DNA of 64,000 nt from Bradymonadia bacterium (GTDB lineage Bacteria > Myxococcota_A > Bradymonadia > UBA7976 > UBA1532). Location of the stretch: assembly GCA_046290225.1 (NCBI GenBank), contig JBKAGE010000036.1, positions 128,001 through 192,000 of the forward strand. The letters run 5' to 3'. The notes under the pieces were generated by a model. That model saw nothing but the letters and a program-made list of their open reading frames with translations. It was not told where the DNA came from and ran no database searches. Shown one piece after another: positions 23,463 to 57,978 of this stretch (position 1 is its first letter; each line of letters opens with the position of its first letter). Position numbers and translations under genes: made by a program.

Positions 23463-25139
<1,677 letters not shown>

Positions 25140-25144: not shown

Positions 25145-25309
25145 GCTCCGGCGCTCCGGCTCTGTGGCCCGCCATCTGAGCGGCGATTTGGCGCATATTC
25201 GCGGCGCCAAAATGCTCGACGCAGCGCTGCTGCGCCTGCGCTTTTGCCACCACGACTGCGCGCCAACTCACCACTCAGATGACGACCCCCAGAGCCTCCG
25301 CGCCTCCGC
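25145..25309. repeat. 165-bp structured dispersed repeat, copy A
   Basis: 6 differences from the inverted copy at 26788-26952; long imperfect palindrome. Confidence 0.92.
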
Positions 25310-25409
25310 TGAGGCTCTTTCCTACCACCTCTCTTTACTGTTGCTTACCAGTGGGTGGTGTAGGCCCTGATTTCATCTCGACCGAGCCTTAGCGGGCCAG
25401 GATGACACC

Positions 25410-25676
25410 TTGAAGCGATCACAGCTGATCATGCTCTGCCTTTGGCTCACCATTCTGTGCTCTCTTGGGGCGGTGGCCACCCGTTTGATTCGATTCCCTG
25501 ATGGGCAAATGAAAGACATGTTCATCATGATCAGCCCCATCTTCTTTGGCATCGCCGCCAAAAACGGCACTCGGCTTGGTCGAGCGGCCACAGTGGTCGC
25601 CTTGATTGGGCTCGTCTTTGCTGGAGCCGCGCTCTTTGCCGCCATCACCAGCAAAGTGCCGACCCCACCCACCTAA
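25410..25676 (+). CDS. small membrane protein
   Basis: three hydrophobic segments; TTG start; lower GC. Confidence 0.5.
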   Translation: MKRSQLIMLCLWLTILCSLGAVATRLIRFPDGQMKDMFIMISPIFFGIAAKNGTRLGRAATVVALIGLVFAGAALFAAITSKVPTPPT

Positions 25677-25699
25677 GACCGACAGCACACAGAGGCGCA

Positions 25700-26134
25700 A
25701 TGGCCATCAAGTCTGCCCCCTGGCACCCCATCACCGCGCACATCGAGGCTCTCTACGGCGTCAGCAGCCGAGGGTTTGGCAACTTCGGCTTCTGGTTTGC
25801 TGATGGCGAGATCTGGATCAGCCCAGCGGGGTTTCATCACCCCGACAGCCTCGCCGATCTCCAGAATTGGGGCTGGCCGGTGCTCACAGCGTTGCCACCT
25901 GAAGGCGAGGCAACGGGGGATTTGCTCAAGATGATCGGGGCCGACGCCAAGCGCAACGTCGTGCAGGTGAACGACGCACAAGCAGAGCAGTTCACCCAAG
26001 GGCGCCTCGATCCCGAGCTCTGGGCCAATGTTGAACACACGGCGCCCCACCTCGCGGTGTGTAAAGGCCACCTGGCCCTCGGCGGCGTCGTCGCCACCAC
26101 AGGCGAAGCGCTCTCCGCTCGTTGGTTCGGATGA
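25700..26134 (+). CDS. hypothetical protein
   Basis: GAGG before ATG; plausible globular composition. Confidence 0.6.
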   Translation: MAIKSAPWHPITAHIEALYGVSSRGFGNFGFWFADGEIWISPAGFHHPDSLADLQNWGWPVLTALPPEGEATGDLLKMIGADAKRNVVQVNDAQAEQFTQGRLDPELWANVEHTAPHLAVCKGHLALGGVVATTGEALSARWFG

Positions 26135-26149
26135 CCCCGAAGGTCTAAG

Positions 26150-26479
26150 ATGAACTGGCTGTATCTCGCGGGCGCGATCTTGGCAGAAGTCGTGGCCACG
26201 ACATGTCTTCAAGCCAGCAATGGTTTCACCCGTCTGTGGCCCTCCATCGTGGTGGTGGTGGGCTATGGCCTCGCCTTCTACTGCCTCTCGCTCGCTCTGC
26301 GCTCAATCCCCATGGGGATCGCATACGCCATCTGGTCAGGGGTGGGCGTGGTCATGATCACGCTGCTCGGATGGCTGCTGTATGGGCAGAAGATGGATCT
26401 CGCCGGGGTGGTCGGCATCGGCCTCATCGTGGCGGGCGTGGGGGTGCTTAACGTGTTCTCGAGAGCAGCCACCCACTGA
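26150..26479 (+). CDS. small multidrug resistance (SMR) efflux protein, EmrE/QacE type
   Basis: conserved TM1 Glu in [31 protein letters not shown]; 4 TM helices. Confidence 0.93.
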
Positions 26480-26498
26480 GCGGGCCCCACTCAACGAA

Positions 26499-26624
26499 TC
26501 AGTCGTGGCCTTTGTTGATCCAGTTGGAGTTTCGGAAGCGGGACGTTGTCTCGTCGAGTTCGTCTAGATCGGACAACTCAAGATCTGGGTGAAGGCGCGC
26601 CGCCCGTGCCAACAATGTCTTTTC
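26499..26624 (-). pseudogene. orphan diverged copy of the 3' end of yfhL
   Basis: 27/41 aa identical to the YfhL C-terminus by hand count ([17 protein letters not shown]-stop); no Cys clusters or start. Confidence 0.8.
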
Positions 26625-26641
26625 AGCTTTTCGTCGGCGAG

Positions 26642-26724
26642 GGTGGTGGCGGTCATCGTGATGTCGATGAGGCCGTGTGGCAAATGCCTCCGCAGGTATG
26701 GCGGAGAAAGCGCAGGCGCAGCAG
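26642..26724. repeat. degenerate half copy of the 165-bp element
   Basis: 26642-26671 matches copy C at 24/30 nt; 26707-26724 is identical to 26853-26870. Confidence 0.6.
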
Positions 26725-26787
26725 AGCAAGAACCCCCAGTCCCTAAAAAAAGCCCCCAAAGCCATAGAAATGCCAAGGCCGAGGCCC

Positions 26788-26951
26788 GCGGAGGCGTGGA
26801 GGTTCTGGGGGTCGTCAGCTGAGTGGTGAGTTGGCGCGCAGTCGTGGTGGCAAAAGCGCAGGCGCAGCAGCGCTGCGTCGAGCATTTTGGCGCCGCGAAT
26901 GTGCGCTAAATCGCCGCTCAGATGGCGGCCCACAGAGCCGGAGCGCCGGAG

Positions 26952-26952
<1 letters not shown>
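26788..26952. repeat. 165-bp structured dispersed repeat, copy B (inverted relative to A)
   Basis: reverse complement matches copy A; begins at the yfhL stop codon. Confidence 0.92.
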
Positions 26953-28241
<1,289 letters not shown>

Positions 28242-28242
<1 letters not shown>

Positions 28243-29237
28243 CAGTGAGATTCGTCGGGCACACACGCGCGCAGCTCCTGAGTCGGTGTCTGACCCGCCA
28301 CGCGGGGATCAGGTGGGTCGAGATACCCCGTGCGCCACAGGGCGAGGGTCTGTCGGGTGGTGTAACGAGGGGTGTAGTCCAGTGCCAGGGGCATCATCGA
28401 CACATCGAGAGGGGCCGAATCCACGAGACGCTCCCACTCCCCAGGGCCAAAGTTGATGCGTTTCGTGCGCTGCAGAAGCTCCAGGCCGCCCCGAGCCACC
28501 CAAGGATTGAGGTTGACCACCGGCTTCTCGAGGATGCCAGCCATCACCGACAGCGGCACCGCCTCCGTCCCGGCCACGTTCACCGGGCCCACCAGATCAG
28601 GCACCTGCAGCGCACGCACCAAAGCTTCCGCGGCGTCGTCCACATGGAGAAACTGCAATAGCGGATCGCGGCCTCGGCGGCCCAGAATCCAGGGCGATCT
28701 CAGCATGGCGTCGATGCGGGTCTCCACATGGGGCCCGATGACATGACAGCACCGCAGGGCCACAGCCTCGAGGCGGGGGTGAATCTCCGCAAAGCGCCAG
28801 AGGCGTTTTTCCGCCTGCAAGCGGCGGATGGCGTGGCGAGGCGCCACCTGCTCTCCCCACACCGGATCCGACTCTTTGCGTGGTGTCTGGTCGAAACGAT
28901 CACCCGTGGCGTAGACGTCGTAGCCGCTCATCTGCACCACGCGGCGTACTCCGGTGAGGCCGGCGGCTTCGAGGACCTTCTCCGTGGCCAGCACCGCGGT
29001 CTTGCTTCGGGCGCTGTTGCCGAAGACCAGGTTGAGTACGCACTCGATGTCGTTGAGCACCATCAGATCGCCCACGTCGATCGAGGTGAGATCGCCATGG
29101 ATGAACCGCACGGGGCCCAGCTGCTTCGGGGGACGCTGATCGATGCCGAAGACTCGGCCAAAGGGGTTCTTGTGGATCAGTCGACGGACCACCGCCTGAC
29201 CCAAATAGCCGCTCAAACCAGTGATGAGGATGTTCAA
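28242..29237 (-). CDS. NAD-dependent epimerase/dehydratase (atypical SDR)
   Basis: ITGLSGYLG, QFLHVDDAA; GGAGG before TTG. Confidence 0.82.
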
Positions 29238-29376
29238 CGCAACCTCCAGCACATCTGCCCAGGGCAGATCCTGGCACCGATCTACACCCTGAAGCGCTCG
29301 TGATCGAGGGGGTCGGCGCTCCACCTCACACAGAGGGCGAGGCGCGGAGGTTGCCTACGCTCGACGTGGCCGTGCC

Positions 29377-30345
29377 TCAGTGGTTGGCCTTGAACCAGTT
29401 CACAGTCTCTTCGATGCCTGCCTCGAGAGAGATGCGCGCCGAAAAGCCCAGACGCTCTGCGGCGCGAGACACGTCGAGCACTCGACGGGGTTGCCCGTCG
29501 GGCTTGGTGGTGTCCCACATGACATGGCCCTCATACCCCGCAGCGCGGGCGATGAGTGCGCTGAGATCTTTGATGGGGGTCTCTACACCCGTGCCGAGGT
29601 TCATCGGCGCAGGGCCCACGTCCTGGGCCAGCGCCAGAGCGATGCCCCGAGCGGCGTCACGGATGTGCAGGAACTCACGACTCGGGGTGCCGGTGCCCCA
29701 GTTCACCACCTCGGGCGTCCCGGCGCGGGCGGCCTCGACGAAGCGGCGAATCAGCGCCGCCACCACGTGACTGTGGCTGGGGTCGAAGTGATCTTCGGGG
29801 CCATACAGGTTCGCGGGGATCACCACGCTGCTGTTCACACCATATTGGCGCTGATAGGTCTCACACGCTTCGTGCAACAGCCGCTTGGCCATGCCGTAGG
29901 GCCCAGTGGCCCCTGTGGGCGGCCCACCCCAGATCGAGTCTTCCTGCTGGGGCAACGGGGCATCTTGCGGGTATGCACAGGTGGTGCTGATGAGGACCAG
30001 CTTCTCGGTGCCGGCCTGACGGGCCTCTTCGAGCATCATCAGGCCCATCATGGCGTTCTCGTAGAGGAACCGGCCTGGGTTCTCCACGTTGGCGCCGATG
30101 CCTCCACACGCAGCAGCGAGATGCACCACTGCTCGAGGCTTCACCTCACGGTAGAGCGCCCGGACCTCGGATTGCTCGATGAGGTTGTAGTCCGCGCTGC
30201 CGAGGGCCACCACTTCAGCGCCGTGATCAGTCAAGGCCTCGCAGACATACCGGCCGAGGAACCCGCGGCCCCCAGTCACAGCCACCCGCATGTCTCGAAA
30301 AGAATGAGCGAGCAGGATGCGCTCGTCGTCCGGGGAGAGACTCAT
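29377..30345 (-). CDS. fcl: GDP-L-fucose synthase-like epimerase/reductase
   Basis: VTGGRGFLG, HLAAACGGIGAN, STTCAYP, YGMAK, NLYGPEDHFD, WGTG.PSREF, KPDGQPRR. Confidence 0.82.
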   Translation of the reverse strand: MSLSPDDERILLAHSFRDMRVAVTGGRGFLGRYVCEALTDHGAEVVALGSADYNLIEQSEVRALYREVKPRAVVHLAAACGGIGANVENPGRFLYENAMMGLMMLEEARQAGTEKLVLISTTCAYPQDAPLPQQEDSIWGGPPTGATGPYGMAKRLLHEACETYQRQYGVNSSVVIPANLYGPEDHFDPSHSHVVAALIRRFVEAARAGTPEVVNWGTGTPSREFLHIRDAARGIALALAQDVGPAPMNLGTGVETPIKDLSALIARAAGYEGHVMWDTTKPDGQPRRVLDVSRAAERLGFSARISLEAGIEETVNWFKANH

Positions 30346-31328
30346 GCCCCGGTGGCCTTGGCCAGGAAGTGGTCCGCATACCAGCGGGCCGTACGGGCGA
30401 GGCCTTCTTTGAGCGACACCTGCGGATCGTAGCCCAGGCCCCGGAGCTTGCCGATGGCCGGACACCTACGCTTGGTGCCCCCCTCTCGCAGCGGCCCGGG
30501 GATCACGTTGAGCGTCACCCCGAGGGCCTCACCGATGCCTTCCACGAGGGCCTTGATGGAGATCTCTTCTTCGACGCCGAGGTGATAAATCTCACCATCA
30601 CCACCGTCGAGACCCGCGATGACCGCACCCCGAGCCCCATCGTCGATGTAGCAGAACGCCCGGGTCTCCGATCCGTCGCCCTGAATCGGCAGATCGATGG
30701 CCGTCTTCGTAAGGCCTTCAGACAACCGCACGATGCGCTCCACGATCTCGGGGATCACGTGCTCGAAGCCCATGTCGGGGCCATAGATGTTGTGGGGTCG
30801 GAAGATTGAGGTCTCCAGACCGCGCTTCCCGCCAAAGTGCAGCGTGAGCAGCTCGCTGGTGATCTTGCCGCCGCCATAGCTGAAGCGGGGGTTGGTCACG
30901 TCGGGGATCATGAGCCGCTCGGACTCGTCCGTGGGCACATGGGTGGGGGTGTTGTAGGTCTCCGACGTGCTGGCGAGGACATAGCGACGCACGCCGCAGG
31001 CCAGGGCAGCGTCGAGGGTGTTGATGGCCCCCTTCACACCCACCTCGAGCACATCGTCGGGGCGCTCGTAGAAATAGCGCGTGCCGTTGATGTAGGCCAG
31101 ATGCCAGACCACCTCGCAGCCCTCGGTGGCTTTGAGGACCGCCTCGGCGTCGCGGACGTCACCCTGCACCAGCTCCATGTTGCCTTCGATCCCCGCCAGG
31201 CGACCGGAGCGGCCTCGGGAGTGATCGTCGAGGACCCTGACGTGGTGACCTTCACTGCAGAGCTCTTTGACCAGGGCAGCGCCGATGAAACCGGAGCCGC
31301 CGGTGACCAGCATCTTCATTCCGCTCAT
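30342..31328 (-). CDS. NAD-dependent nucleotide-sugar epimerase/dehydratase
   Basis: VTGGSGFIG, ASTSETY, YGGGK, RPHNIYGP, GDGSETRAF. Confidence 0.88.
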   Translation of the reverse strand: MSGMKMLVTGGSGFIGAALVKELCSEGHHVRVLDDHSRGRSGRLAGIEGNMELVQGDVRDAEAVLKATEGCEVVWHLAYINGTRYFYERPDDVLEVGVKGAINTLDAALACGVRRYVLASTSETYNTPTHVPTDESERLMIPDVTNPRFSYGGGKITSELLTLHFGGKRGLETSIFRPHNIYGPDMGFEHVIPEIVERIVRLSEGLTKTAIDLPIQGDGSETRAFCYIDDGARGAVIAGLDGGDGEIYHLGVEEEISIKALVEGIGEALGVTLNVIPGPLREGGTKRRCPAIGKLRGLGYDPQVSLKEGLARTARWYADHFLAKATGA

Positions 31329-32629: not shown

Positions 32630-32953
32630 GTGCGCTCCGTGATCCTGAAGGCGTGGCCTGTGCCACTCCGGTGCCGGGTTATGCGGCGTCAGTTGGGGTG
32701 TCGGCGCGAGCGGTGCTGGCCTTGAGACAGCCTCACTCGAAGAGACATCAACACATGGACGCCTCTCGACTCGAGAGTGTGACCCCAGCGGGCGGTCAAG
32801 TGTCTCGGGGCTTACCGCGAAGATGCAATCCGGGCAAGGAAAGGCATGCCCCGAAGTGGGGCATTTAGCAGTGGTCAAACCTGTCTCGATGTAGGAGAAT
32901 GCCTCATCTGTATAGATGTGTGCCTCTCATTCCTTACACCGAAGGGACTCGAC

Positions 32954-35900
32954 ATGGCCCTGAAACAGTTCTCCATCGCATGTGCAGGTCTGGCGACGCT
33001 GGCGCTGTGCAACACAGCAACGGCGCAGACGCCGGCCAACTGCGCAGGCATCCTCGCCGCAGGGCAGAGCGTGGGTGATGGCGTGTATGCCATCGACCCC
33101 GACGGCCCTGGCGGTGACGCCCCCTTCAACGCGTACTGTGACATGACCACTGATGGCGGTGGCTGGACGCTGGTGGGCAACCTGTTCAACCGGTGGGCCC
33201 AGACCCCTGCCCCGGGCCCCTTCTTCACGCAGGACATCACTCAGGCAAGCAATGGCTGGTCGGCGAACAATGGCAACGGCACCACCATCACGCCGGCTCA
33301 GCCCGGTGTGTTGAAGGTGGACGACTGGGAGGTGCCCACGGAGATTCGCTACCAGATGGTGGAGCGCTCCAATGGCATCGTCCGCAATCAGGTTGTGATT
33401 GACGACGCGGCCTCCATCACCCACGTCACGGGCCAGTTCAACGTGGAGCGTGATGCACGCAACGGCTCGGCAACGGGCTTCTCCACGCCCTTCAACCAGG
33501 ACCTCACCTTCTATTACGCCAGTGATTACGAGCACACCTGGCATTACTGGGGCGGCATCATGGGCCGCAGCCGCAAGCGCAACGGCTGGCAAATCGGTCT
33601 CTCGGTGAACCAGGCTGATGGCATCAACGGTTACAACAACATCAACGACGATCAGAACCGCGGCCACCTCAACATCGGCGTCGGCGGTGATCCCCAAGAC
33701 AACCGCGACATCACGGGTTACTGGGCCGGCCTCTGTGAGAGTCAGGGCTGCAACGAGCAGTGGGCCGCCAACCTCGGCTCGGCTACGGCCTCGTTCCGCA
33801 TCTGGTACCGCGGCATCTCCGACACCGACGCAGATGGCATCAACGACGAGCTCGACAACTGCCCTGCTGTAGCCAATGCCGATCAGGCCGACGGCGACAG
33901 TGACGGTGTGGGTGACGCCTGTGACGCGTGCCCGAATGACGGCACCAACGACGCAGACAGCGACGGCGTTTGCCAGGACGTAGACAACTGCCCCTCTGTC
34001 TCCAACGCAGACCAGCTCGATGACAATGGTGACGGCTACGGCGATGCCTGTGTGAGCACCGCCGCCAACATCGACCCCACGGCCACTCTGGGCAATGACA
34101 TCATCATCGGCCCCAACGCGGTCATCGGCAGCTACGCCAGCATCGGCGACGGCACCAACATCGGCGGCACTGTGGGTAACAGCGTGGGCATTGGCGCAGG
34201 CTCGGTGGTGCCCGACGGCTCGAGCGTCGGCAACGGCGCCCGCCTTGGAGCCAACGTGGGCCTCGGTACTGGTTGCTCGGTGGAGGTGCTCGCACGCTTG
34301 GGCGACAACGTCACCGCCGGCGACAACTGCTTCTTCGGCAGCAAGGCCAACGTGGGCGCCGGCAGCAGCTTCGGCGCCAACGTCAGCGTCGGTATCCAGG
34401 CCATCGTTGGCGACGGCTCGAGCTTCGCTGACGGCGCCAGCCTCGGCAACAACAGCCAGGTCGGCGCCAGCGCTGATCTGCTCGCCGGAGCCACCATCGG
34501 CAGCAACACCACCGTCGGCCACACCCTCAGCCTCGGCGCTGGCGGCAGCGTCGAAGGCAACACCGTCATCGGTGACGAGGCAATCATCGGCGCCGGCGGC
34601 ATCGTGCGTAGCTACGTGACCATCGGCAACAGCCTCGCCATGGGCGCTGGCGCTGAGTTTGCCTCTGGTGCCGCTGCAGGCGACGACGCCACCGTCGGTG
34701 AGAACTCCGAGATCCGCGGCGAGATCGGCAACAACGTCACGTTGGAAGACCGGGTGTTCATCGGCAACCAGAGCAGCGTCGGTGACAACGGCCACCTGCA
34801 CCACGACGTGAGCCTCGGCATCTTCGTCAGCTTGGGCTCCGGCGTCACCGTGAACGACGACAGCGCCATCTACGACGGCGCGACCCTCGGCGACGACAGC
34901 ACCGTGGGCGAGCGCACCACCATCTTGTTCCGAGCCAACATCGGCGCCCGGGCCAGCATCGGCGACGACGCCATCGTGGACGAGCAGAACACCATCGGTG
35001 ACGACTTCGTCCTGGGGAACAACAGCCGCCTCTGGCCCCGCTCGACGTACGGGCACAACGTCAACATCGGGGCCAACGTGCTCATCCGCGACAGCGCCGA
35101 CGTCGGCGACGGCGTCACGGTCGAGGATGACGTCATCATCTTCCCCGAGAGCACCCTCGGCGAGGGCGCCATCATCCGCCAGGGCGTTGAGCTCGGCGTA
35201 GAGACCTGCGAGACCCGTGTCTGTGGGCAGGTCAACGTGGGCGGCTGCCAGGATGTCGGCGCCGATCTCGCCCCTGGGGCCAGCTCGGAAGATGACTGCG
35301 CAACCATCGATGGCGATCTGGTGGTCAACGCCAACAGCACCTTCGACCCCACCACCGCTTCGCTCGTGGGCCGCGCCCACCCCGACGCGGTGAACTTCCT
35401 CGCGGCGAGCTTCGGCGCCGACTCGGTCACCGTGAACGCCGATCTGTCGGGCCTCGAAGAGGGCGACGAGGTGTTGATCCTCAACCTGTACGGCAGCTCT
35501 GCCCGTCACAGCTCGGTGGGTGCCTACGAGTTCGCGCGCATCACCGCGCTGAACGAGGCCACCAACACCATCACCTTCGAGCAGAACCTCACCGCCACCT
35601 TCGGCAACGGCAGCAACGCCGATCTCATCGACCAGACGATTCTGGTGCAGCGTGTGCCCACCTACAGCTCTGCTGTCATCAACGGCATGATCACCGCTGA
35701 CGAGTTCAACCCCGCCAATGGCCGCGGCGGCGTGGTGGCCTTCCGCGTCGACGGCACCCTCACCTTCGGGGCCAACGGCAGCGTGAACGTCACCGCCATG
35801 GGCTTCCCTGGTGGCAACTGGGGCCAGGGGAACAACGCCCCTGGCCAGAGTGGCTTCAGCATCACCGGCAGTGGCGTCTACTCCCCTGCCAACGGCGGCG

Positions 35901-36487
35901 TGAACCCTCCGGCCAACTCAACTGGTGGCGCCGGTGGCCATGGTAACAGTCACGGCGGGTGCGGCGGCGGTGGCGGTGGTTATGTCATCCGTGGTGGCCG
36001 AGGCTCGACTGGCGGCTCCACCCATGGTACCCACATCCCCTATGGGGGTTACACCATCGGAAGCGCTGACCTCTCTGGTGGCCTGTTCTTCGGCGGCGGC
36101 GGCGGCGGTGGCGGTGACAACGACAACAATGCCCACATCGGCGAGGGTGGCTACGGTGGTGGTATCGTCTTCATCTCCGCCACCGAGATCGTCGATCTTG
36201 ATGTCATTGCCGACGGTGAAGAAGGCCACAACGGTGATGGGGGCGGCGGTGGCTGTGGTTACGCCATGGGTGGCTCCGGCGCCGGCGGCACCATCTACGT
36301 GGTGGCTGACACCATGACCATCCGCGAGGTCTCCGCCGAAGGCGGCATCCGCAACCTCAACGGCTCCGACTGCCGCAGCGACGGTCAGTTCCGTCCCTAC
36401 GGTGGCGAAGGCTCCGAGGGCCGCGTGCGCATCGATGGTGTCATCAACGGCGCCACAAACACCTCCCCGGCGCCCTACCGACCCTGA
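32954..36487 (+). CDS. secreted modular protein: fibrinogen-like head, TSP3 repeats, long left-handed beta-helix, Gly-rich C-terminal domain
   Basis: signal peptide; [18 protein letters not shown]...NADQ.D.D.DG.GDAC; about 400 aa of (I/V)G hexapeptides; GGGGGG blocks. Confidence 0.85.
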
Positions 36488-36760
36488 TCGGCGCTCAATC
36501 TCTCCTCACGCCTCCCCACGCCTCTCCTCTCTCCTATAGATAGATGCCATTTCGGGCCGTCTCCGGTGCCCGAGACCTCTGATGATCCAACAGAGATTTC
36601 GAGGCACCTCTTCCGACCTTGCACACACCTTACACACCCACCCAAAGACACACCTTGCCCCACCATGAAACACATGTATCTTTATTAGTGACATACTCCC
36701 CACATTGATCCACATTGAGTTACAGGGACGCAGACGGAGCGGCAGAGGGAGACCAGAAGA

Positions 36761-39511
36761 GTGGAGTGCAGGATGCATCGACCATCACGATCGAAAGCGC
36801 TGGGTCGCGTTTTCGTATTCGGGCTCACAACCCTGACATGTGCTGGGATCGCCCATGGAGGACAGGGCAACAACCACTGTGCCATTGATGACACTGGCCA
36901 GGTCAAGTGCTGGGGTCAGGGCCACAACGGCCGCCTGGGCCAGGGCGACACCTCTCATCGCGGCGACGGCGCCAATGAGATGGGTGATTTTCTCAGTTAC
37001 ATAGACCTTGGCACCAATCAACCTGTCGTTCAGGTGGCTCAGGGCGGGGGTCACACGTGTGCATTGTTCGACGATGGCGCGATCAAGTGCTGGGGTGACA
37101 ACGCCAACGGAGAGCTCGGGCAAGAGGACTTCACCACCCGCGGTGACCAGCCAGGTGAGATGGGGGCCAACCTGCCCTATGTCGATCTCGGCACGGGTCG
37201 TACGGTGGTCAGCCTCTCGGCAGGCTTCGATTACACATGCGCCATCCTCGACAACGGCGGGGTGAAGTGCTGGGGACGCAACAGCTTTGGCAACCTCGGC
37301 CTCGGTGACACCATTCGACGGGGCGCCTCCCCCGGTGAAATGGGCGACAATCTGGAATATGTGGATCTCGGCACAGGTCGAACCGCAGTTCAACTCTCGG
37401 CATCGGTGACGTTCACCTGCGCCGTCCTCGACGATGGCAGCGTCAAATGCTGGGGGCAAAACCCATATGGTCAGCTCGGCCTCGGCGACGTCTCGGCTCG
37501 GGGAGACGAGCCTGGGGAGATGGGCGACGCCTTGCCTGCCGTAGATCTCGGCACAGGTCGTACCGCCATCAGCGTCGCCACTGGCACCTCCAACGCATGC
37601 GCCATCCTCGATGATGGCAGCGTCAAGTGTTGGGGCCGGAGCTTCTTTGGAGAAAGCGGCGCCGGCGACGCACTCACTCGGGGCGACGAGCCCGGAGAGA
37701 TGGGTGACGCCTTGCCTGCTGTGGCTTTGGGGACTGATCGCACGGCCACCCAGCTGGCGTTGAGCGACTTTTCGTCCTGTGCCTTGTTGGACAATGGTGG
37801 GGTGAAGTGCTGGGGCCGCAACAGCTTTGGCAACCTCGGCATCGGCGACACCGCTCACCGCGGAGACAACGCCGGCGAGATGGGCAACGCGCTGTTCTAC
37901 GCAGGTACAGCCTCGGGACGCACGGTGCAGCAGGTCGCGGCCGGCGACAATCACACGTGCGCTTTGATCGACGACGGCACTGTGCAGTGCTGGGGCTACA
38001 ACACCTACGGGCAGCTCGGCCAGGGTCACAAGCTCGCCATCGGTGATGAAGCGGGCGAGGTGATCCCCACCGTGCCCCTCGGCGCTAACTTCACTGCAGC
38101 TGTGTTGGGTGGTGCCACCGGCGCCCCCATCGTGCCCGTGCAGTGCGACGTGCCCGACAACGACGGCGATGGTGTGTGTGGTGACGTGGACAACTGCCCC
38201 ACGGTGCCCAATGCCGATCAAGCAGATGACAACGGTGATGGCCATGGTGACGCCTGTGTCAGCCCCCTCGCCGACATCCACCCCACGGCCACGTTGGGCT
38301 TCGGTGTCGTGATCGGGGCCGAGGCCAGCATTGGCGCCTTCAGCAACATCAACGCCTATGCAACGGTGAACGGCACGGTGGGCGACAGCGTCACTGTGGG
38401 TCGGGAAGCCGTCGTACAGGCAGGGGCCATCGTGGAGAACGTCGCTCAAATCGGCGAGCAGACGCAGATCGGCGCCGGGTGTCAGATCGGTGTGCTCGCG
38501 AACATCGGCCCCGAGTCATCTCTCGGTGACGACTGCATCGTGGGTACCCGCGCAGTGGTCGGCGGAGGCGCCAACCTCGGCGCCAGATGCCAGATCGGCG
38601 CGCTGAGCACCCTCGACGAGCGCGCTCAGTTCCAGGCAGATGTCACCATCGGCAGCAACACCATCATCGGTGAGTTCCCACAGATCAGCGCCAACAGCAG
38701 CATCGGGAGCAACACTGTGGTGGGCAACAACCTGGTCATGACCCTCAGATCCACCATCGAGTCCAACACCACCATCGGCAACCAGGTCACCCTCTTCGAC
38801 GATGTGTCCATCGGCAACTACGTCATCGTCGGCAGCGCCCTCACCATGCTCTCGGGGGCAGAGCTCGCTGACGGTGTGGTCGTCGGCGACGCCGTGGATG
38901 TGGGCTCGAACAGCGAAATCCGCGGCACCCTCGAAGACTTCGTCGTCGTGGGCAACGACGCCTTCGTAGGCAACCAAAGCACCGTGGGCAGTCGGAGTGA
39001 GCTCCAGGACGGGGTCACCCTCGGCAGCTTCGTGACCTTGGGTGAGCTCGGCTTCGTACGCGCTGGAGCCACCCTGTACGACGGGGTGACCATCGGCATC
39101 GACTCTCACATCGGCGAAGACGTCACCATCCTCTACAACACCACCCTCGGCACGCGCCCCGTTGTGGCGACGGACGCCTTCATCGATGAAGGGAACACGT
39201 TCGGAGACTTCGTCCGCGTCGACCTTCGATCCCGCATCTGGCCCCGTGGCACCTTTGGTGACAGCGTCGTCGTGCACCCTGACGTGCTCATCCGCGAGCG
39301 GGCCCAGGTGGGTGATGGGGTCATCATCTGGAACGACGCCATCATCTACCCGGAGACCATCATCGGGGAGACCAGCCAGATCGGCCACGGCGTGGAAGTG
39401 GGTGCCGCAGACTGCGCACTGAGAGTCTGTGGGCAGGTCACCATCGGGTGTGGTGTCATCGTCGAAGACGATCTGGCTCCAGCCTCCACAGTGGGCGCCC
39501 TCTGCGACTGA
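36761..39511 (+). CDS. secreted modular protein: RCC1/BLIP-II repeat propeller, TSP3 repeat, long left-handed beta-helix
   Basis: seven CA..D.G..(K/Q)CWG.N..G.LG repeats with GEMGD.L..VDLG inserts; DNCP..PNADQ; hexapeptide stalk. Confidence 0.85.
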   Translation: MECRMHRPSRSKALGRVFVFGLTTLTCAGIAHGGQGNNHCAIDDTGQVKCWGQGHNGRLGQGDTSHRGDGANEMGDFLSYIDLGTNQPVVQVAQGGGHTCALFDDGAIKCWGDNANGELGQEDFTTRGDQPGEMGANLPYVDLGTGRTVVSLSAGFDYTCAILDNGGVKCWGRNSFGNLGLGDTIRRGASPGEMGDNLEYVDLGTGRTAVQLSASVTFTCAVLDDGSVKCWGQNPYGQLGLGDVSARGDEPGEMGDALPAVDLGTGRTAISVATGTSNACAILDDGSVKCWGRSFFGESGAGDALTRGDEPGEMGDALPAVALGTDRTATQLALSDFSSCALLDNGGVKCWGRNSFGNLGIGDTAHRGDNAGEMGNALFYAGTASGRTVQQVAAGDNHTCALIDDGTVQCWGYNTYGQLGQGHKLAIGDEAGEVIPTVPLGANFTAAVLGGATGAPIVPVQCDVPDNDGDGVCGDVDNCPTVPNADQADDNGDGHGDACVSPLADIHPTATLGFGVVIGAEASIGAFSNINAYATVNGTVGDSVTVGREAVVQAGAIVENVAQIGEQTQIGAGCQIGVLANIGPESSLGDDCIVGTRAVVGGGANLGARCQIGALSTLDERAQFQADVTIGSNTIIGEFPQISANSSIGSNTVVGNNLVMTLRSTIESNTTIGNQVTLFDDVSIGNYVIVGSALTMLSGAELADGVVVGDAVDVGSNSEIRGTLEDFVVVGNDAFVGNQSTVGSRSELQDGVTLGSFVTLGELGFVRAGATLYDGVTIGIDSHIGEDVTILYNTTLGTRPVVATDAFIDEGNTFGDFVRVDLRSRIWPRGTFGDSVVVHPDVLIRERAQVGDGVIIWNDAIIYPETIIGETSQIGHGVEVGAADCALRVCGQVTIGCGVIVEDDLAPASTVGALCD

Positions 39512-40608: not shown

Positions 40609-40632
40609 GACCTCCACTCTGCTGGAGGCCTC

Positions 40633-43660: not shown

Positions 43661-43661
43661 C

Positions 43662-44872: not shown

Positions 44873-44888
44873 ACACTCCTCCTGAGGA

Positions 44889-51087: not shown

Positions 51088-51203
51088 TGGGCATTCCCAC
51101 CCTCCACTCACCATGAAGTCGAATCAACCAGCTTCGTAGCAAGATGGCGTAGCCCAAGGGTTCATATGCGTCGCAGTGATTTGCTTACTGCGGCGGTCAG
51201 GCT

Positions 51204-51533
51204 CGCTCCGCGGGTAAGAGAGTTTTCGGGCACGGGCACGGGCACGGGCACGGGCACGAGTTGATTCGGGTGTGGACCTGTGGCCGCTCCTGAACTCAGG
51301 GCGAAGGTTGTCATTGAGACTGGGTTGATGCGCTTCAGAATGGCCTGAGGCTTCAGGTCTTGGGCGGTATGGAGTCCAGAGCCTCCACTGAGGAGAGCGT
51401 GGGGCCGAGTGGAGCCTCCACCACCATAAACCCACGAGCGGAGTCATGCCGGGCCACGGGTCCGCGTATGTATCAACTCGTGCCCGTGCCCGTGCCCGTG
51501 CCCGTGCCCGAAAACTCTCTTACCCGCGGAGCG
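51204..51533. repeat. 62-bp perfect inverted repeat with (CGGGCA)5 flanking a 206-bp spacer
   Basis: arms 51204-51265 and 51472-51533 are exact reverse complements. Confidence 0.92.
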
Positions 51534-51550
51534 CCCCCACCCCTCGAAGC

Positions 51551-52708: not shown

Positions 52709-52733
52709 GGAGATCTCCTCAGGGTTGGGCACG

Positions 52734-52778
52734 GTATGGTCGGGCACCATACGATTCAGCACGGTGAATGGTCATTCA
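52734..52778. promoter_or_regulatory. two palindromic operator-like sites upstream of the acyl-CoA dehydrogenase
   Basis: GTATGGT-N5-ACCATAC (52734-52752) and TGAATG-gt-CATTCA (52765-52778). Confidence 0.55.
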
Positions 52779-52829
52779 GCGATTCGCCCATTTAGAGACT
52801 TGTAGGCGTGAAAAGCAAGCGGTGCGCCC

Positions 52830-53190
52830 TCAACCACCTGCCATCGACAAGGCCATCTCTACCAGCGGGTCTTCTTGGCCCGCCCGCGCAACAGCAAGGA
52901 TGGGAAACTGAGCTGTATCAATCGGCCACGCGAGGGCGTCAGGCATGTCTGGACCGACCTCCGCAATCCAAGGAATCAAAGAGAAGCCCAGGCCTGCGGC
53001 CACAAAGGCCAAGATGGCGTCTGCGCTGTTTGCCGAGAGCACCTCTTCCGGGGCCCAGGACAGCGCTTCGAACTGTAGATCGCGATGGGTCGTACCTTCA
53101 GGGTAGGCCACAAAGGGGATGTGTCTGAGGGCGTCAAGATCGGGCGCCTCCAATGCAGTGGCGGTCTCCACCGAAACCTCGGCAGCCGTG
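52830..53190 (-). pseudogene. C-terminal fragment of a LysR substrate-binding domain
   Basis: LDALRHIPFVAY..., SADAILAFVAAGLGFSLIP; no HTH and no credible start. Confidence 0.7.
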
Positions 53191-54352
53191 AGCGTGATCG
53201 ACGATGGGCCAGCTTGTGCGTGGTCGGGGCGAGCAGGCCCAGGGTGGTGACCCACACCGCCAGGGTGCTCCACACACCAGGGCCTGCGAGCAGTGTCAGC
53301 GCCAGCGTGATGGGCCCGAGAAACACAGCGGCCTCCCAGGTGGACTCGTAAAACGGCAGCCTGGCGCAAGCGCCCGGACGATCATGGTGCACGTGAAAGC
53401 CACGGGCGAGCCAGGCCAGCCGACCAGAGTCCGGCGACACGCGCTGGTCGAGGAGCCAGTGGGCCAGACCGCTGACGAAGTCAGTGAGAAACATCGCCGG
53501 CAGCAGCAGCGCCAACAACACCCAGGGGCTCGGGGCCACCCACACCAGCGCTCTGATGGAGCCGGCCACGGTCAGATAGACGCCCACACACTTGATGCCT
53601 TCGACGACAGAGTCGCGATCCAGAGTGCTCCACCATGCCCGGAGAGGCTCGATGTTCGCTGCCCAGACACTCTGAGGTGCGGGTTTCGACAGACCAAATG
53701 TCCTGGTCTTCTCCCCTGACCGATAGGTGCCGAAGAGACGGTCCCACACGATGAAGATGCCACCGAAGTTCGCCGGCTCCGCAGGGGCGTGGTGACGCCG
53801 GTGAGCCTCAGGGTGGTTGAGCAAGGCACCGAGGACGCCGAAGTCACCGAGGCTGTTGCTGTGCAGCAGGAACATGGCGCCAGTGGAGGCCATCATGATC
53901 CCGAGGTAGACCTCGGCGGGGATCCCCATGAGCGCCAGGGGCAAGAAAAACGGAAAGGCACTCAGAGGGGCCAGGATCCCGGAACGAAAACCCACCGTCA
54001 GGTTGTATTCGGTGGGCTGATGATGGACCGCGTGCACGGCCCATAGCCCATGGTGCCGGTGAGCGAGGCGATGCTCCCAATAGTAGAGCAGGTCGTAGGC
54101 GATCAGACCCAGCACCCAAGTCGATGGGGCTTGGGCCGAGAGTGCCCAGGCGCCCCAACTCGACTGGACCATGTGGTAGAGCGCCGCCAGTGTGCCCTGA
54201 GTGGCCACGGCAGCCAGGCCTCTCGCCAAACCACAGGTGAGGTTGGTCTTCACATGGGACCAGGCATAGGCCGAGGTGCCCTGACAGCGATTTTGATGGG
54301 CTTCGGCGCAGATGATGGCGACGCCGAGGGGGCAAAGCAGCGTGAGAATCAT
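52976..54352 (-). CDS. sterol-desaturase/AGMO-like domain fused to a truncated CarF/TMEM189-like domain (probably disrupted)
   Basis: YYWEHRLAH, HAVHH, HRRHH, NFGGIFIVWDRLFGT; then DFVSGLAHWLLD, FHVHH, THKLAH followed by an apparently non-homologous tail. Confidence 0.75.
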   Translation of the reverse strand: MILTLLCPLGVAIICAEAHQNRCQGTSAYAWSHVKTNLTCGLARGLAAVATQGTLAALYHMVQSSWGAWALSAQAPSTWVLGLIAYDLLYYWEHRLAHRHHGLWAVHAVHHQPTEYNLTVGFRSGILAPLSAFPFFLPLALMGIPAEVYLGIMMASTGAMFLLHSNSLGDFGVLGALLNHPEAHRRHHAPAEPANFGGIFIVWDRLFGTYRSGEKTRTFGLSKPAPQSVWAANIEPLRAWWSTLDRDSVVEGIKCVGVYLTVAGSIRALVWVAPSPWVLLALLLPAMFLTDFVSGLAHWLLDQRVSPDSGRLAWLARGFHVHHDRPGACARLPFYESTWEAAVFLGPITLALTLLAGPGVWSTLAVWVTTLGLLAPTTHKLAHRRSRSRLPRFRWRPPLHWRRPILTPSDTSPLWPTLKVRPIAIYSSKRCPGPRKRCSRQTAQTPSWPLWPQAWASL

Positions 54353-54411
54353 GATGTCCCTCTCCTGAACCTTTGAACTCAGGATAGAGGGGCGCCACGA
54401 TGTTCTTCTAT

Positions 54412-54436
54412 TGAGTAATCGTCGACCGATTAATCA
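54412..54436. promoter_or_regulatory. AT-rich palindrome upstream of the desaturase
   Basis: TGAgTAATCG-N5-CGATTAaTCA (one mismatch). Confidence 0.5.
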
Positions 54437-54464
54437 CTGCAGCTAATCAATTGAAAGTGGGGAC

Positions 54465-55160
54465 TCAGCGCTTCTTGATCCAGAGGGCACCCTCGTCGCC
54501 TGCATCGACCTCAATCCAGGTGCCGGCGGGGGTGGTCTTGCGCTGCCAGAACTTTGCGTGCAGGCGCTCCACCTGATTACGAATCACCGCCATGGACTCG
54601 TCCACGGCGACCTTGAGCGCCTCTTCGAGAGCCGTGTCGATGACCTCGCCCGCGATGGCGGAGCACACCCCACCCACATCGAGCTCTTTGCACAGCTGCT
54701 CAGTGACCTGACGGCGCATCTCCGGCCGCTGGGCGTCGATCTGGCGCATGACCCCGGCACGGTAGGCTTCGGTCTCCAGCGTGTAGAACTGGTCGCGCTC
54801 TACGTTCTCGATCTCGATGAAGTCGAGCACCCGCTTTTGCAGATCAGCGTCTGCCCCCACGGTGGTCTCGCCCTCCGGAGGCACAGCCACATAGCCCTGC
54901 ACGCTCTCGCCCACGACGCCGAGGCGCTTGAGGGCGATCTGCTCGTCTACCCGAGCGCGGATGGACTTCAGCACCGCTGTGCGCTCGGCACGCTGCTCCG
55001 GGGTGAGGCTGTAGCCGCTGTCGGCCTTGCCATCTGCTTGCAAGCCAGTGGCTGCAGGGGGATCGATCAGCTCGGGGGTCTCCTCCGCCTCCTCGGCAGG
55101 TGCAGAAGCACAACCGGCGGCGAGGCAGAGAGCGGCGAACAGGTGAGCGAAACGACGCAT
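54465..55160 (-). CDS. lipoprotein with YdbL/DUF1318-like domain
   Basis: lipobox AAGC; GKADS; LKRLGVVGESVQGYV, EN.ER...Y, GTWIE. Confidence 0.65.
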   Translation of the reverse strand: MRRFAHLFAALCLAAGCASAPAEEAEETPELIDPPAATGLQADGKADSGYSLTPEQRAERTAVLKSIRARVDEQIALKRLGVVGESVQGYVAVPPEGETTVGADADLQKRVLDFIEIENVERDQFYTLETEAYRAGVMRQIDAQRPEMRRQVTEQLCKELDVGGVCSAIAGEVIDTALEEALKVAVDESMAVIRNQVERLHAKFWQRKTTPAGTWIEVDAGDEGALWIKKR

Positions 55161-55303
55161 GAGCAGACTCCGAAGGTGATGCGCCGTTGAGTAGCAACCT
55201 TCAGGCCAAACAGAAAGTCACCTCCACAGGCCAGATCTGGCCATGGTGCAGGTGTCGTGGGGCTCATGGACCCCACGGCAGGTGGCAGCTGCGGTGACCT
55301 CTC

Positions 55304-56818
55304 TCAGGGCTCTGGGGGGGGCTCTGGTTGCACGCACACCCTCACATTGCCGCCCTCGCCATTGTCCCGTGGCAGGCACACGCTGCCTGCAGGGCAATCC
55401 TCAGTGCTACAGCACGGCTCCACGCAGCGATCTTCGACGCACAGCCCGCTCTGGCAGGCCTGACCAGCGCCGGATACACACTCGCTGCCAAAGGGCAGCT
55501 CACCTCTGGGCAGTGGGGCGCAGGCTGTGGTGATGCTGCGGTTGTCTACTCCGCTGAGCACCTGATTGCACTGGTAGCCGTTCGGGCAATCCCGGGCGCT
55601 GCAGCACGGATCGGCGCACTGAGCGCGGTTGTCAGCGAAGATGCAGATGCCGCCGAGACAGTCGAGCTCAAGGAACTGGGAGCAGTCGTCACCGGTACGG
55701 CCAAAGCCAATGCCCAAGGGCACGTCGCACATCATGCGCTGGCCACCGTTGACGTTACGCCACGTGCAGATGCGCCCGCCACAGTCCACGTCGGTACAGC
55801 ACCCGCCCTGGCACTGATCGTCTCCCACATCGCACAGGCCGCTGCGGCACGAGTTCCCCGTGGGCCCGCAGGTCTGGCCCGCGTTGGACGTGAACTCCAC
55901 CCCCGGCGGGAAGATGCGGTCGGGGAGGCAGTACTTCACTCCATTCAGGTAGAGACACCCGAAGTTCGGCGGGCACTCGAAGCTGGCGCAGCACAGCTGG
56001 GCACAGACAGACTGCGGATCTCCAGCGACGGCCACCTGCAGGCACAGCCCGCTGTTGCACTCGTCATCGGTCTGGCAATCATCTCCGAGACTGCCCATAG
56101 GCGGCGGCCCGGGGGGATTGCAGTCTCCAGTGTTCTGGTCGCACATCCACCCGTCGGGGCACACGCCGCTCTGCCGGCAATCGTTTGGATCGGCTGGCAC
56201 ACACCGCCCGGTGTTTTGATCGCAGCGCTCATTGGCACCACACATCAACCCGTCACGGCAATCATCTGGGGCGGGAGGCACGCAGTCACCCGTGTTGGGG
56301 TTGCAGGTCCAACCTGCGGGGCATGGAGCACCCTCACGGCAATCTTCTGGGGGCACCTCGGCGTCGGGGGTCGTGGGGGCGATGCATCGACCGGTGACTG
56401 GACTGCACTCGAGGCCCTGGGCGCACCCTTCAGTGAGACAGCCCGGGCCGCACCGGCCAACGGCGCAAATGCTCGCTGGTGGATCACAGCCATCATCATC
56501 GACGCACTCTTCCACCGGTGGCAGGCACTGCCCGCTCTGGCACGTGAGGCCTGCCTCACAGTCGCGATCGGTCCGGCAATCGAAAATGCAGATGCGGCTC
56601 TCGGTGTCGCAGTAGAAGCCCGGATCACAGTCGCTGTTGATGCGGCACGGCGGCGGCGCTGCGTCGACCTGCGCATCTGCCGGGCGCCGCGGGGAGGCAT
56701 CACGGGCAGGCAACGGCTCGGTGCTCGACCCGCCATTGCTCACCTTGTCTTCGCAGGCGCCGAGGCACAGGGAGAGCCCGATGAGCGCACACATCAACCA
56801 TGGGGAAGAGGCAAACAT
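55304..56818 (-). CDS. Cys-rich repeat lipoprotein
   Basis: lipobox LGAC; many C...TG.C and C..D..C modules. Confidence 0.78.
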   Translation of the reverse strand: MFASSPWLMCALIGLSLCLGACEDKVSNGGSSTEPLPARDASPRRPADAQVDAAPPPCRINSDCDPGFYCDTESRICIFDCRTDRDCEAGLTCQSGQCLPPVEECVDDDGCDPPASICAVGRCGPGCLTEGCAQGLECSPVTGRCIAPTTPDAEVPPEDCREGAPCPAGWTCNPNTGDCVPPAPDDCRDGLMCGANERCDQNTGRCVPADPNDCRQSGVCPDGWMCDQNTGDCNPPGPPPMGSLGDDCQTDDECNSGLCLQVAVAGDPQSVCAQLCCASFECPPNFGCLYLNGVKYCLPDRIFPPGVEFTSNAGQTCGPTGNSCRSGLCDVGDDQCQGGCCTDVDCGGRICTWRNVNGGQRMMCDVPLGIGFGRTGDDCSQFLELDCLGGICIFADNRAQCADPCCSARDCPNGYQCNQVLSGVDNRSITTACAPLPRGELPFGSECVSGAGQACQSGLCVEDRCVEPCCSTEDCPAGSVCLPRDNGEGGNVRVCVQPEPPPEP

Positions 56819-57034
56819 GTGCGGTAATGTGCCAGGGGGGCAGAGATGATGGCAATGCGAGATGGCGCGGTGGTGTACTGAGCAGGTGTGAAGCACAGCC
56901 TCACCCCCTGTGAAGTCCCGGCATCACTCGAGGGGCATCGAGGGCGGGCCTCTCGAGTCAACGCAGCACTCACCCCTGAACAACTCTCTTAGAGTTCGAG
57001 CACTTACAGCCGGCCACGCGGCATCTTCCGATTT

Positions 57035-57051
57035 TTGGCATCGTCTGTGCT
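57035..57051 (+). promoter_or_regulatory. sigma54 promoter
   Basis: TTGGCAtcgtcTGTGCT with GG-N10-GC spacing, about 40 nt before ATG 57094. Confidence 0.6.
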
Positions 57052-57093
57052 CTCTCCTGCGAGCGAACCACGATTTCACTCAGGAGAATCTAC

Positions 57094-57807
57094 ATGCGCC
57101 GCTTCACCATCGCCGCCGCCGCTGCCGCCCTCACCCTCACCGGCTTCACCGTGACCGCTCAGGCTGAGGTGCCTCTGGCCACCTCCGCCAGCCTCTTCGG
57201 CGGCAGCTCAGGCTTCAGCGGAGACGTGCAGAGCCGCCGAAGGTATCGTAGGAGTCGCCGTCGGCCTCGGGTCACCCGTCGGGTAGAGGTCGTGCACAGC
57301 AACGCGCAGATCCCTGGCGCTGGCCTGATCTTCGGTCAGATCGGGACCGGCACCGTCGGTGGGGCCGAGACCTACGAGACGCCGGTCGCCCTCGGGGCGG
57401 GCTTCCGCTACGAGGCAGGCAACGCTGGGGTGGAGGTGGGCACCCGGGCGGTCTTCGCTGATGACATCTATGGCCAGAACAACCTCACCAGCACCAACCT
57501 GCGCCTGATCGGTCAGTACCACCTGAACGGGAACAGCATGGCCTCGCCCTACTTTGGCGCCGGCCTTGGCCTGACCCACACCTCGATGGAGCAGGATGGC
57601 CTGCACTATGAGGGCTCGGGCCTCTCTGCAGAATTCGCCGCGGGCCTGTCGTTCCTGCGCGACAGTCCTGTCCGTATGAATGTCGAGGCGGCAGCGTCGC
57701 TGCCCTTCCAACGCTTCAACCGCAACGGCTCGGCCTTTGCCACTGACGATCAGGTGTACGCCCCGACCTTCACGCTGAACGTGGGGCTGGGCTTCCAGGT
57801 GTTCTGA
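57094..57807 (+). CDS. outer-membrane beta-barrel protein with Arg-rich N-terminal segment
   Basis: signal peptide ending AQA; SPYFGAGLG; terminal GLGFQVF; AGGAG RBS. Confidence 0.75.
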   Translation: MRRFTIAAAAAALTLTGFTVTAQAEVPLATSASLFGGSSGFSGDVQSRRRYRRSRRRPRVTRRVEVVHSNAQIPGAGLIFGQIGTGTVGGAETYETPVALGAGFRYEAGNAGVEVGTRAVFADDIYGQNNLTSTNLRLIGQYHLNGNSMASPYFGAGLGLTHTSMEQDGLHYEGSGLSAEFAAGLSFLRDSPVRMNVEAAASLPFQRFNRNGSAFATDDQVYAPTFTLNVGLGFQVF

Positions 57808-57813
57808 TGCTCT

Positions 57814-57978
57814 GCTCCGGCGCTGCGGCGGCGCCAGCCGCCGTGACGCCGGCGATTTCCCGCCCAGCTGCGACCTTTCCGTCCTCGACGCAGCACAGCT
57901 GCGCCTGCGGGTGAAAGCCCACATCTGAACGAGAACTCACCGACCTCACGACGACTGTCGCCACCTCCGCGCCTCCGC
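57814..57978. repeat. 165-bp structured dispersed repeat, copy C (diverged)
   Basis: gapless alignment to copy A, about 64% identity by hand count, motifs at identical offsets. Confidence 0.85.

What the first reader, a model, noticed from the sequence alone, without database searches (positions are those of the whole stretch)
25145..57978. Family of 165-bp post-stop-codon elements with covarying stems and a strand-specific G-T/G-U rod
Seen: three copies (A 25145-25309 after ettA, B 26788-26952 after yfhL, C 57814-57978 after an OMP gene), each 165 bp, starting 0-6 nt after a stop codon and oriented the same way relative to that gene. A and C are only about 64% identical (hand count) yet align without gaps. 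Invariant blocks sit at the same offsets: GCTCCGGCGCT (1-11), CGGCGATTT (37-45), CTCGACGCAGC-nnn-GCTGCGCCTGCG (71-96), AACTCACC (121-128), GACGAC (137-142), CCTCCGCGCCTCCGC (151-165). The variable blocks differ between A and C but stay self-complementary within each copy (A: ATCTGAG/CTCAGAT, GGCTCTG/CAGAGCC; C: GTGA/TCAC, CTTTC/GAAAG), which is compensatory change. Most mismatches are C-A on the sense strand, so they become G-T(U) wobbles on the antisense strand, giving a rod of about 70 bp with a fixed internal G-A mismatch and a 3-nt apical loop. Established: strand-specific imperfect hairpins right after ORFs characterise integron attC sites, and REP/REPIN hairpins are substrates of HUH transposases; these copies lack the RYYYAAC/GTTRRRY boxes. 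Inference: an uncharacterised structured ssDNA recombination/transposition substrate or antisense ncRNA family whose enzyme is encoded elsewhere.
Basis: partly seen in the sequence, partly recalled or inferred. Interest (0 to 1): 0.9.

Follow-up and report, generated by a model that had tools for sequence, protein, structure and literature searches.

The report
One-strand rod repeats behind genes
The three hairpins belong to a family of about a hundred mobile-looking repeats that sit directly behind genes in this bacterium and are built to fold on one DNA strand only; relatives occur in many other bacteria, but the enzyme that copies this family was not found.

Summary
Confirmed, and larger than reported. 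The genome holds 83 full and 17 half copies. All 76 tested fold better on the antisense strand, 1,308 of 1,344 mismatches there contain G, and covariation survives a tree-aware test (138 versus 19.6). 85 of 94 copies follow a gene's 3' end; 56 lie within 8 nt of the stop. Paired rings are exchanged between copies symmetrically. An IS inserts in the apical loop, and a group II intron at the foot.

The copies are not attC sites or REPINs: no boxes, no integron integrase, no RAYT. The apex matches the Geobacter Gmet_R1001-1024 repeats of 2009. Sister rods carry IS5/IS1182-type ends, but this family has no terminal repeat or target duplication.

Best reading: an ERIC/YPAL/MITE-type non-autonomous repeat handled as folded single-stranded DNA. 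The mobiliser was not found, and DNA versus RNA is not settled. The scan noted similar rods on other DNA (e1-5025768, e1-4780286).

The parts
23463..25139 (+). ettA gene upstream of copy A
   Evidence: TIGR03719 943 bits, cut-off 807; start from my own gene caller
25145..25309 (+). Rod copy A; the minus strand is the strongly folding strand; no standard tail
25700..26134 (+). Small ORF between A and B, no Pfam family
26150..26479 (+). Small multidrug resistance (SMR) family gene between A and B
   Evidence: PF00893, E 1.8e-34
26501..26606 (-). Diverged duplicate of the yfhL 3' end, keeps the reading frame of about the last 35 residues
   Evidence: local alignment, score 92; only such case among 76 copies tested
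26685..26727 (-). Partial rod (apex and start of right arm)
   Evidence: (I8)
26753..26787 (-). G/T-rich tail of copy B
26788..26952 (-). Rod copy B; first base is the G of the yfhL TAG stop; the plus strand is the strongly folding strand
26952..27302 (-). yfhL 4Fe-4S ferredoxin gene upstream of copy B (true start probably about 9 codons further in)
   Evidence: NF033683 104 bits, cut-off 86
57094..57807 (+). Outer-membrane beta-barrel gene upstream of copy C
   Evidence: PF13505 E 1.9e-6, at the cut-off
57814..57978 (+). Rod copy C; the minus strand is the strongly folding strand
57979..58010 (+). Conserved tail of copy C, fading into G/T-rich sequence

Best explanation
A non-autonomous mobile repeat of the ERIC/YPAL/MITE kind whose working form is the folded antisense (bottom) DNA strand. 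Steps: (1) Shown: a rod of about 66 pairs kept by compensatory change, with mismatches almost only G.T, G.A and G.G on the bottom strand. (2) Shown: it sits flush with gene 3' ends in one orientation. (3) Shown for sister rods only: they end in inverted repeats identical to IS5/IS1182-type elements and have target duplications. (4) Inferred: this family is moved in trans by such an IS-encoded DDE transposase, missing from the collapsed assembly, by a hairpin-guided insertion that leaves no duplication, as reported for IS1272. (5) Inferred: copies then swap interiors by gene conversion, and only symmetric swaps persist. (6) Inferred: the fixed orientation persists because the mRNA then carries the weakly paired strand.
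For: 83 full and 17 half copies. Bottom strand folds better in 76 of 76. Opposed bases on it: 2,946 Watson-Crick, 613 G.T, 492 G.A, 203 G.G, 36 other, over 66 copies. 48 of 66 pairs change on both sides; 138 same-branch co-changes versus 19.6 +/- 5.1 shuffled. C-GNA-G words: 6.3 per copy on the bottom strand, 1.0 on the top; no GNRA or UUCG tetraloop closes the apex in the 66 copies. Stable GNA triloops and G-containing mismatches are DNA features (recalled). IS end of G013 identical over 18 nt to a rod end of G021, both after CTAG; IS end of G021 identical over 16 nt to a rod end of G053 (NF033581 above cut-off, NF033551 best hit below cut-off). The sister family in this genome has a 3-bp duplication in 9 of 13 copies. 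Partner rings correlate 0.86-0.92, adjacent rings 0.16-0.74. Two paralogous sites share flank and outer ring but differ in both arms inside. IS1272 inserts at stem-loops close behind genes without duplication and showed a 25-bp left-end tandem duplication (PMC5678879, passages); left-end duplications occur here too.
Against: No mobilising gene was found: no IS1182 match, one unrelated-looking DDE_Tnp_1 match whose ends I did not examine. This family has no terminal inverted repeat (at most 2 bp) and no duplication, so step 4 rests on sisters and analogy. No empty site was obtained. The RNA fold is as asymmetric as the DNA fold. No leading/lagging bias was seen, 44 versus 40, with a weak skew proxy. 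Copies are related, so cell counts are not independent. The intron inserts on the weaker top strand, and 2 of its 6 upstream junctions have only the end motif, not a whole rod. The host genes have stronger codon bias than other gap-ending genes, which fits an RNA role equally well.
Confidence: 0.5

Rival explanations
1. A domesticated RNA element: a 3'-UTR rod that protects or tunes the upstream mRNA, or a discrete antisense RNA. Spread is by gene conversion; the asymmetry reflects G-U pairing.
For: 85 of 94 copies follow a same-strand gene end. Host genes have higher codon scores, median 0.40 versus 0.28 (66 versus 1,081 genes, p 7e-12). RNA folds are strong on both strands. ERIC and YPAL affect mRNA stability (PMC2229807). 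Geobacter homologues were called predicted RNAs.
Against: The strongly folding strand is not the mRNA strand. U.U, A.A, C.C, C.U and A.C mismatches make up 36 of 1,344, and no RNA-type tetraloop closes the apex. Sister rods have transposon ends and duplications. No Rfam family at gathering score.
Confidence: 0.2
2. A SINE-like retro-element: the bottom-strand RNA is reverse-transcribed from its 3' end, primed at gene or transcript ends, by the resident group II intron reverse transcriptase. Left-end fragments are aborted starts.
For: The left end is sharp and the tail fades out. TTT precedes 21 of 94 copies. 11 tandem left-end fragments lie upstream of full copies. Copies also follow T-tracts and tRNA-like 3' ends. 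A group II intron sits at the rod foot.
Against: No intron RT gene is assembled; the two RTs present are retron-like. Sister rods are symmetric and have duplications. Slippage at a hairpin foot also explains partial duplications and the collapsed forms.
Confidence: 0.12
3. A REPIN-like element moved by a RAYT/Y1 HUH transposase.
For: Extragenic single-strand hairpins at gene ends. In the family, Y1 genes and rods co-occur in 7 genomes, and 14 of 28 have neither (kin are not independent).
Against: No PF01797 match in a 99.4% complete genome. A custom profile from 28 relatives' Y1 proteins gives best E 0.31. No rod within 30 Y1 loci (best E 0.16). GTAG/CGTC tag at the foot in 5 of 66.
Confidence: 0.08
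4. Dispersed attC-like sites recombined by a tyrosine recombinase.
For: Bottom-strand fold, fixed unpaired bases near the apex, position after stops, targeting by a group II intron. Both ends carry the same CTNCG-N3-CTNCG word as a direct repeat, and left-end-plus-tail collapsed forms exist.
Against: RYYYAAC in 0 of 66, both boxes in 0 of 66. Best TIGR02249 score 85.6 against a cut-off of 265. Copies follow large ordinary genes and do not form arrays.
Confidence: 0.05

Closest known systems
Gmet_R1001-R1024 repeats of Geobacter metallireducens (PMC2700814, Fig. S1; supplement read whole, main text in passages)
   Same: Intergenic, multicopy, same central palindrome GRCGTAGCGCTGCTACGCC; rows R1003, R1010, R1015 and R1021 share the flanking CCTC and TGCGG words of our apex (compared by eye).
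   Different: About 113 nt against 165-181 nt plus tail. Described only as predicted RNAs; no strand asymmetry, covariation, stop-codon position or mechanism in the passages seen.
ERIC/RU-1 and YPAL/RU-2 of enterobacteria (PMC2229807 parts 1-2 of 3; PMC2759123 passages)
   Same: Long single rod, non-coding, co-transcribed at gene ends, mobiliser unproven. YPAL is 168 bp, not AT-rich, and inserts beside dyads. The printed ERIC apex has TC on both sides of the terminal stem, which gives tandem G.A on the opposite strand as here (my reading).
   Different: ERIC has TA ends and a terminal repeat, YPAL has 3-26-bp duplications; this family has neither. The printed RU-2 sequence has a different apex.
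MITEs of IS5/IS1182-type elements, including IS1272 stem-loop replacement (PMC5678879, passages)
   Same: Sister rods share their ends with such ISs. IS1272 goes into stem-loops 3-66 bp behind genes without duplication.
   Different: The window's family has direct, mismatch-forming end words instead of inverted repeats, and an interior conserved in structure, which MITEs do not need.
REPINs with RAYT (PMC3116915, passages)
   Same: Intragenomic population of extragenic hairpins.
   Different: No RAYT, no REP tag, interior fully paired.
Integron attC sites (PMC7923331, PMC4792948, passages)
   Same: Bottom-strand fold after stop codons; target of group II introns.
   Different: No R boxes, no IntI, no arrays; the intron lies on the top strand in gene orientation.

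Membership tests
attC site / CALIN | RYYYAAC and GTTRRRY boxes at the two ends | tested here: not met
   0 of 66 left, 5 of 66 right, 0 of 66 both
attC site / CALIN | Integron integrase, or clustered cassette array | tested here: not met
   TIGR02249 best 85.6 against 265; copies dispersed
attC site / CALIN | Bottom-strand-specific fold with unpaired bases | tested here: met
   76 of 76; fixed 3x2 loop below the apex
REPIN/REP with RAYT | RAYT gene in the genome, flanked by the repeats | tested here: not met
   multicopy genes can be missing from this assembly
REPIN/REP with RAYT | GTAG or CGTC tetranucleotide at the hairpin foot | tested here: not met
   5 of 66
Classical MITE | Terminal inverted repeats shared with an IS | tested here: not met
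   At most 2 bp in 66 copies; met by sister rods
Classical MITE | Target-site duplication | tested here: not met
   No recurrent duplication at offsets up to 70 nt; inner 3-mers equal in 27 of 66; met by the sister family, 9 of 13
Classical MITE | Short, non-coding, multicopy, stem-loop forming | tested here: met
Classical MITE | Filled and empty sites in close relatives | tested here: inconclusive
   No same-genus genome among those searched; public runs too shallow
Gmet_R1001-type palindromic repeats | Central palindrome GRCGTAGCGCTGCTACGCC in an intergenic repeat | tested here: met
   Exact in 3 of 66 copies, compensatory variants in the rest
Rfam RNA family | Score at or above a gathering threshold | tested here: not met
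   Window: tRNAs only; 8 copies: only generic miRNA-hairpin hits far below threshold
CIR (Caulobacter) and RPE (Rickettsia) repeats | Sequence or model match | not tested
   Apex resemblance is recalled only; the review read describes CIR as two-armed with GANTC

The most novel reading that the evidence does not exclude
The rods are one branch of a bacteria-wide superfamily, including the Geobacter repeats and possibly ERIC, defined by a single-stranded DNA apex (tandem G.A, G.T wobble, short stem) that a common cellular protein reads. The ends are interchangeable: some lineages borrow IS5/IS1182 termini, while this one spreads without a dedicated transposase and recombines as folded rods, exchanging both arms at once.
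Probability: 0.2. Interest if true: 0.85.

Novelty: new variant of a known kind. Interest (0 to 1): 0.58.

Why it matters
How ERIC-type repeats move is still open (PMC2229807: no experimental support for transposase mobilisation as of 2007). This family offers about 100 divergent copies in one genome, so the structural rules can be read directly: which strand folds, which mismatches are allowed, which words never change. The same apex appears with different IS-derived ends in other genomes, which gives a direct test of whether apex or ends drive mobility. The rods are also landing sites for an IS and a group II intron, so they steer other mobile DNA to harmless places behind genes.

Tried and rejected
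Enzyme searches in G000: Y1, custom Y1 profile (75), Y2/IS91 (25; control silent, so uninformative), IS110 (26), IntI (23) and IS1182 (105) gave nothing. IS and intron bodies are collapsed at contig ends, so absence is weak for multicopy elements. The two RTs are retron-like (72, 91).

Empty-site search: 2 runs listed, no RNA holder listed; laying them on 18000-26640 gave shallow, mostly foreign contigs (34). The nested-duplication idea (inner rod inserted into a small hairpin) was rejected: 0 empty hairpins (64), 27 of 66 equal 3-mers (98).

Pattern scans: apex-IS end, 0 in metagenomes (33) and only G000 among 301 phylum genomes (71). Family pattern, 0 in genome contigs; one search was mis-spaced (control failed, 37), the corrected pattern passed its control (43) and still gave 0 (45). 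Plasmids gave only 23-29-bp chance hits (66). blastn of copy C found only 32-44-bp hits in 4 of 40 relatives (14). The apex IS could not be assigned to a family (106).

Flawed analyses not used: the fragment walk-back and the family-2 regexes (recounted). One model hit (G122, L072) is a near-perfect palindrome without the typical apex and is treated as false (52). The replichore test was null with a weak proxy (28).

Ten literature searches found no paper describing the strand asymmetry or a mechanism for this apex. Subscription papers (the primary CIR, YPAL, ERIC and RPE reports), 18 of 19 supplements of PMC2700814 and the G. bemidjiensis alignments were not seen and may bear on novelty.
Full report
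Observation. They follow ettA, yfhL and an outer-membrane protein gene at +5, -1 and +6 nt from the stop. The antisense (bottom) strand folds as one rod with z -10.0 and -7.1 as DNA, the sense strand with -3.2 and -1.6. Rfam finds only tRNAs in the window.

The family in this genome. An iterated profile gives 117 hits: 83 full or nearly full, 17 halves at contig ends, 14 core-only hits and 3 others. Lengths cluster at 165-168 and 178-181 nt; the long forms add a branch at the apex. Most copies continue into a tail of about 30-35 conserved bases. G+T content stays at 0.67, 0.65 and 0.58 over the next three 35-nt bins, against 0.49 after other stops. The unit is therefore longer than 165 nt and its right boundary is not fixed.

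Structure. All 76 end-to-end copies fold better on the bottom strand, as DNA and as RNA. Ten were dropped because their arms could not be anchored without gaps. In the remaining 66, opposed bases at positions 2-66 are 2,946 Watson-Crick, 613 G.T, 492 G.A, 203 G.G and 36 of any other kind. On 32 diverse copies, 94.4% of cells pair and 48 of 66 pairs change on both sides. On a tree, 138 changes fall on the same branch for partners, against 19.6 +/- 5.1 for shuffled partners and 21-54 for slid partners. Purine-purine mismatches recur roughly every 10 positions. The longest perfect run averages 7.5 bp against 9.6 expected, shorter in 55 of 66 related copies. C-GNA-G words are six times commoner on the bottom strand, and no GNRA or UUCG tetraloop closes the apex. 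From recalled thermodynamics this fits folded DNA better than RNA, but energy alone does not decide.

Position. Gene calls come from my own codon-score caller. Of 94 copies with an intact left end, 85 have a same-strand gene end on that side. 56 start between -1 and +8 nt of the stop, against 2.7% expected for random intergenic placement; 7 follow a T-tract and 4 are read into by the gene. Eleven 30-37-nt copies of the left end stand between a gene end and a full element, and several collapsed forms join the left end to the tail. The right side faces gene starts and ends about equally, 35 and 40. Host genes have stronger codon bias than other genes that end before a gap. No leading/lagging preference was seen, with a weak proxy.

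Exchange of rings. Each left segment correlates best with its pairing partner across the rod (0.86-0.92), not with its linear neighbour (0.16-0.74). Cluster agreement was weaker for one ring (0.36). Two copies behind tandem paralogues share 251 of 300 upstream bases and the same outer ring, yet differ inside in both arms together. The interior was replaced in place. Ordinary gene conversion followed by selection explains this; recombination between folded rods is the bolder reading.

Passengers. Twenty of 20 contig ends with one IS terminus lie directly after GTAGCC plus three bases, the apical stem and loop; the loop is repeated on both sides, and 17 of these are halves of this family. Only 6 such sites remain intact. 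A group II intron (RF00029, 49.1 bits, threshold 40) starts after the terminal CTCCG in 6 of 6 junctions and is followed by tail-like sequence in 7 of 7. Four of the six follow a complete rod. A metagenome contig links a matching 5' end to an intron maturase gene. Both bodies are missing from the assembly. I read them as parasites of the rods, not as their mobiliser.

Relatives. A covariance model hits 10 of 27 family genomes at E 0.01 or better, with 27 copies in G008 and 12 in G014 and single weak hits in seven, and 11 of 120 phylum genomes at E 0.001. Most inspected hits share the apex but have other arms and near-perfect terminal repeats. Three viral contigs carry it too (host not determined). 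A rod end of G021 equals, over 18 nt, the end of a 1.22-kb IS5-family element of G013, and a rod end of G053 equals, over 16 nt, the end of an IS1182-like element of G021; all follow CTAG. A sister family in this genome has GAGG...CCTC ends with a 3-bp TNA duplication in 9 of 13 copies. The same apex was printed in 2009 for 24 repeats of Geobacter metallireducens (PMC2700814). The printed ERIC consensus has a similar tandem-G.A geometry (PMC2759123; my reading).

Mechanism. Against attC: no boxes, no integrase. Against REPIN: no Y1 gene, no tag, no rods beside relatives' Y1 genes. The window's family also fails two MITE tests, terminal repeat and duplication, while its sisters pass. I therefore call it MITE-like in working but not a classical member. 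The most likely route is mobilisation in trans by an IS5/IS1182-type transposase through a hairpin-guided insertion without duplication, as described for IS1272 (PMC5678879), followed by conversion between copies (0.5). That enzyme was not found and no empty site was obtained. An RNA role (0.2), retro-copying (0.12), RAYT (0.08) and tyrosine recombination (0.05) remain.

Papers seen. PMC2229807 parts 1-2 of 3. PMC2700814 passages and supplement S4 whole. Passages only of PMC2996986, PMC2759123, PMC2267715, PMC5896051, PMC5678879, PMC3184786, PMC3116915, PMC7923331 and PMC4792948. CIR and RPE resemblances are recalled and untested.

Verdict. A real and unusually well-resolved family, a new variant of known palindromic mobile repeats. 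The class is old and the apex was catalogued before. The G-only mismatch rule, symmetric ring exchange and interchangeable ends were not in the papers found by ten searches. Interest 0.58.

Noticed in passing
window 51204-51533: A different repeat: 82-bp inverted arms with GGGCAC hexamer runs around 166 nt. The same family borders 19 and 10 contig ends, where another IS appears to insert into the hexamer run.
   Followed up: no
window 26501-26787: Behind copy B lie its tail, a partial rod and a diverged in-frame duplicate of the yfhL 3' end, as if a new gene end plus rod had recombined into an older yfhL.
   Followed up: partly
G000:C56:53183 (-) and C35:476482 (-): Two copies face a start codon at 5-6 nt; their bottom-strand GGAG would sit at Shine-Dalgarno distance (starts from my own caller).
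   Followed up: no
G000:C55:60821, C37:78167, C24:93: Copies flush with tRNA-like sequences, judged by eye.
   Followed up: no
L094 1676-4943 (G000:C79): Two convergent retron-like reverse transcriptase genes flanked by two related genes of unknown family.
   Followed up: partly
G000 sister family, e.g. C42:41400, C51:16368: Ends read CCTAAC and GTTAGG, close to attC R boxes, but flanked by TNA duplications.
   Followed up: partly
L150 1-85: The related intron in a metagenome contig follows a C-rich flank ending in a CTTTG-N3-CTTTG direct word, like the rod's right end.
   Followed up: no
window 14026-17886, 32954-39511: Large genes with internal repeats of 111, 18 and 180 bp, probably surface proteins.
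   Followed up: no
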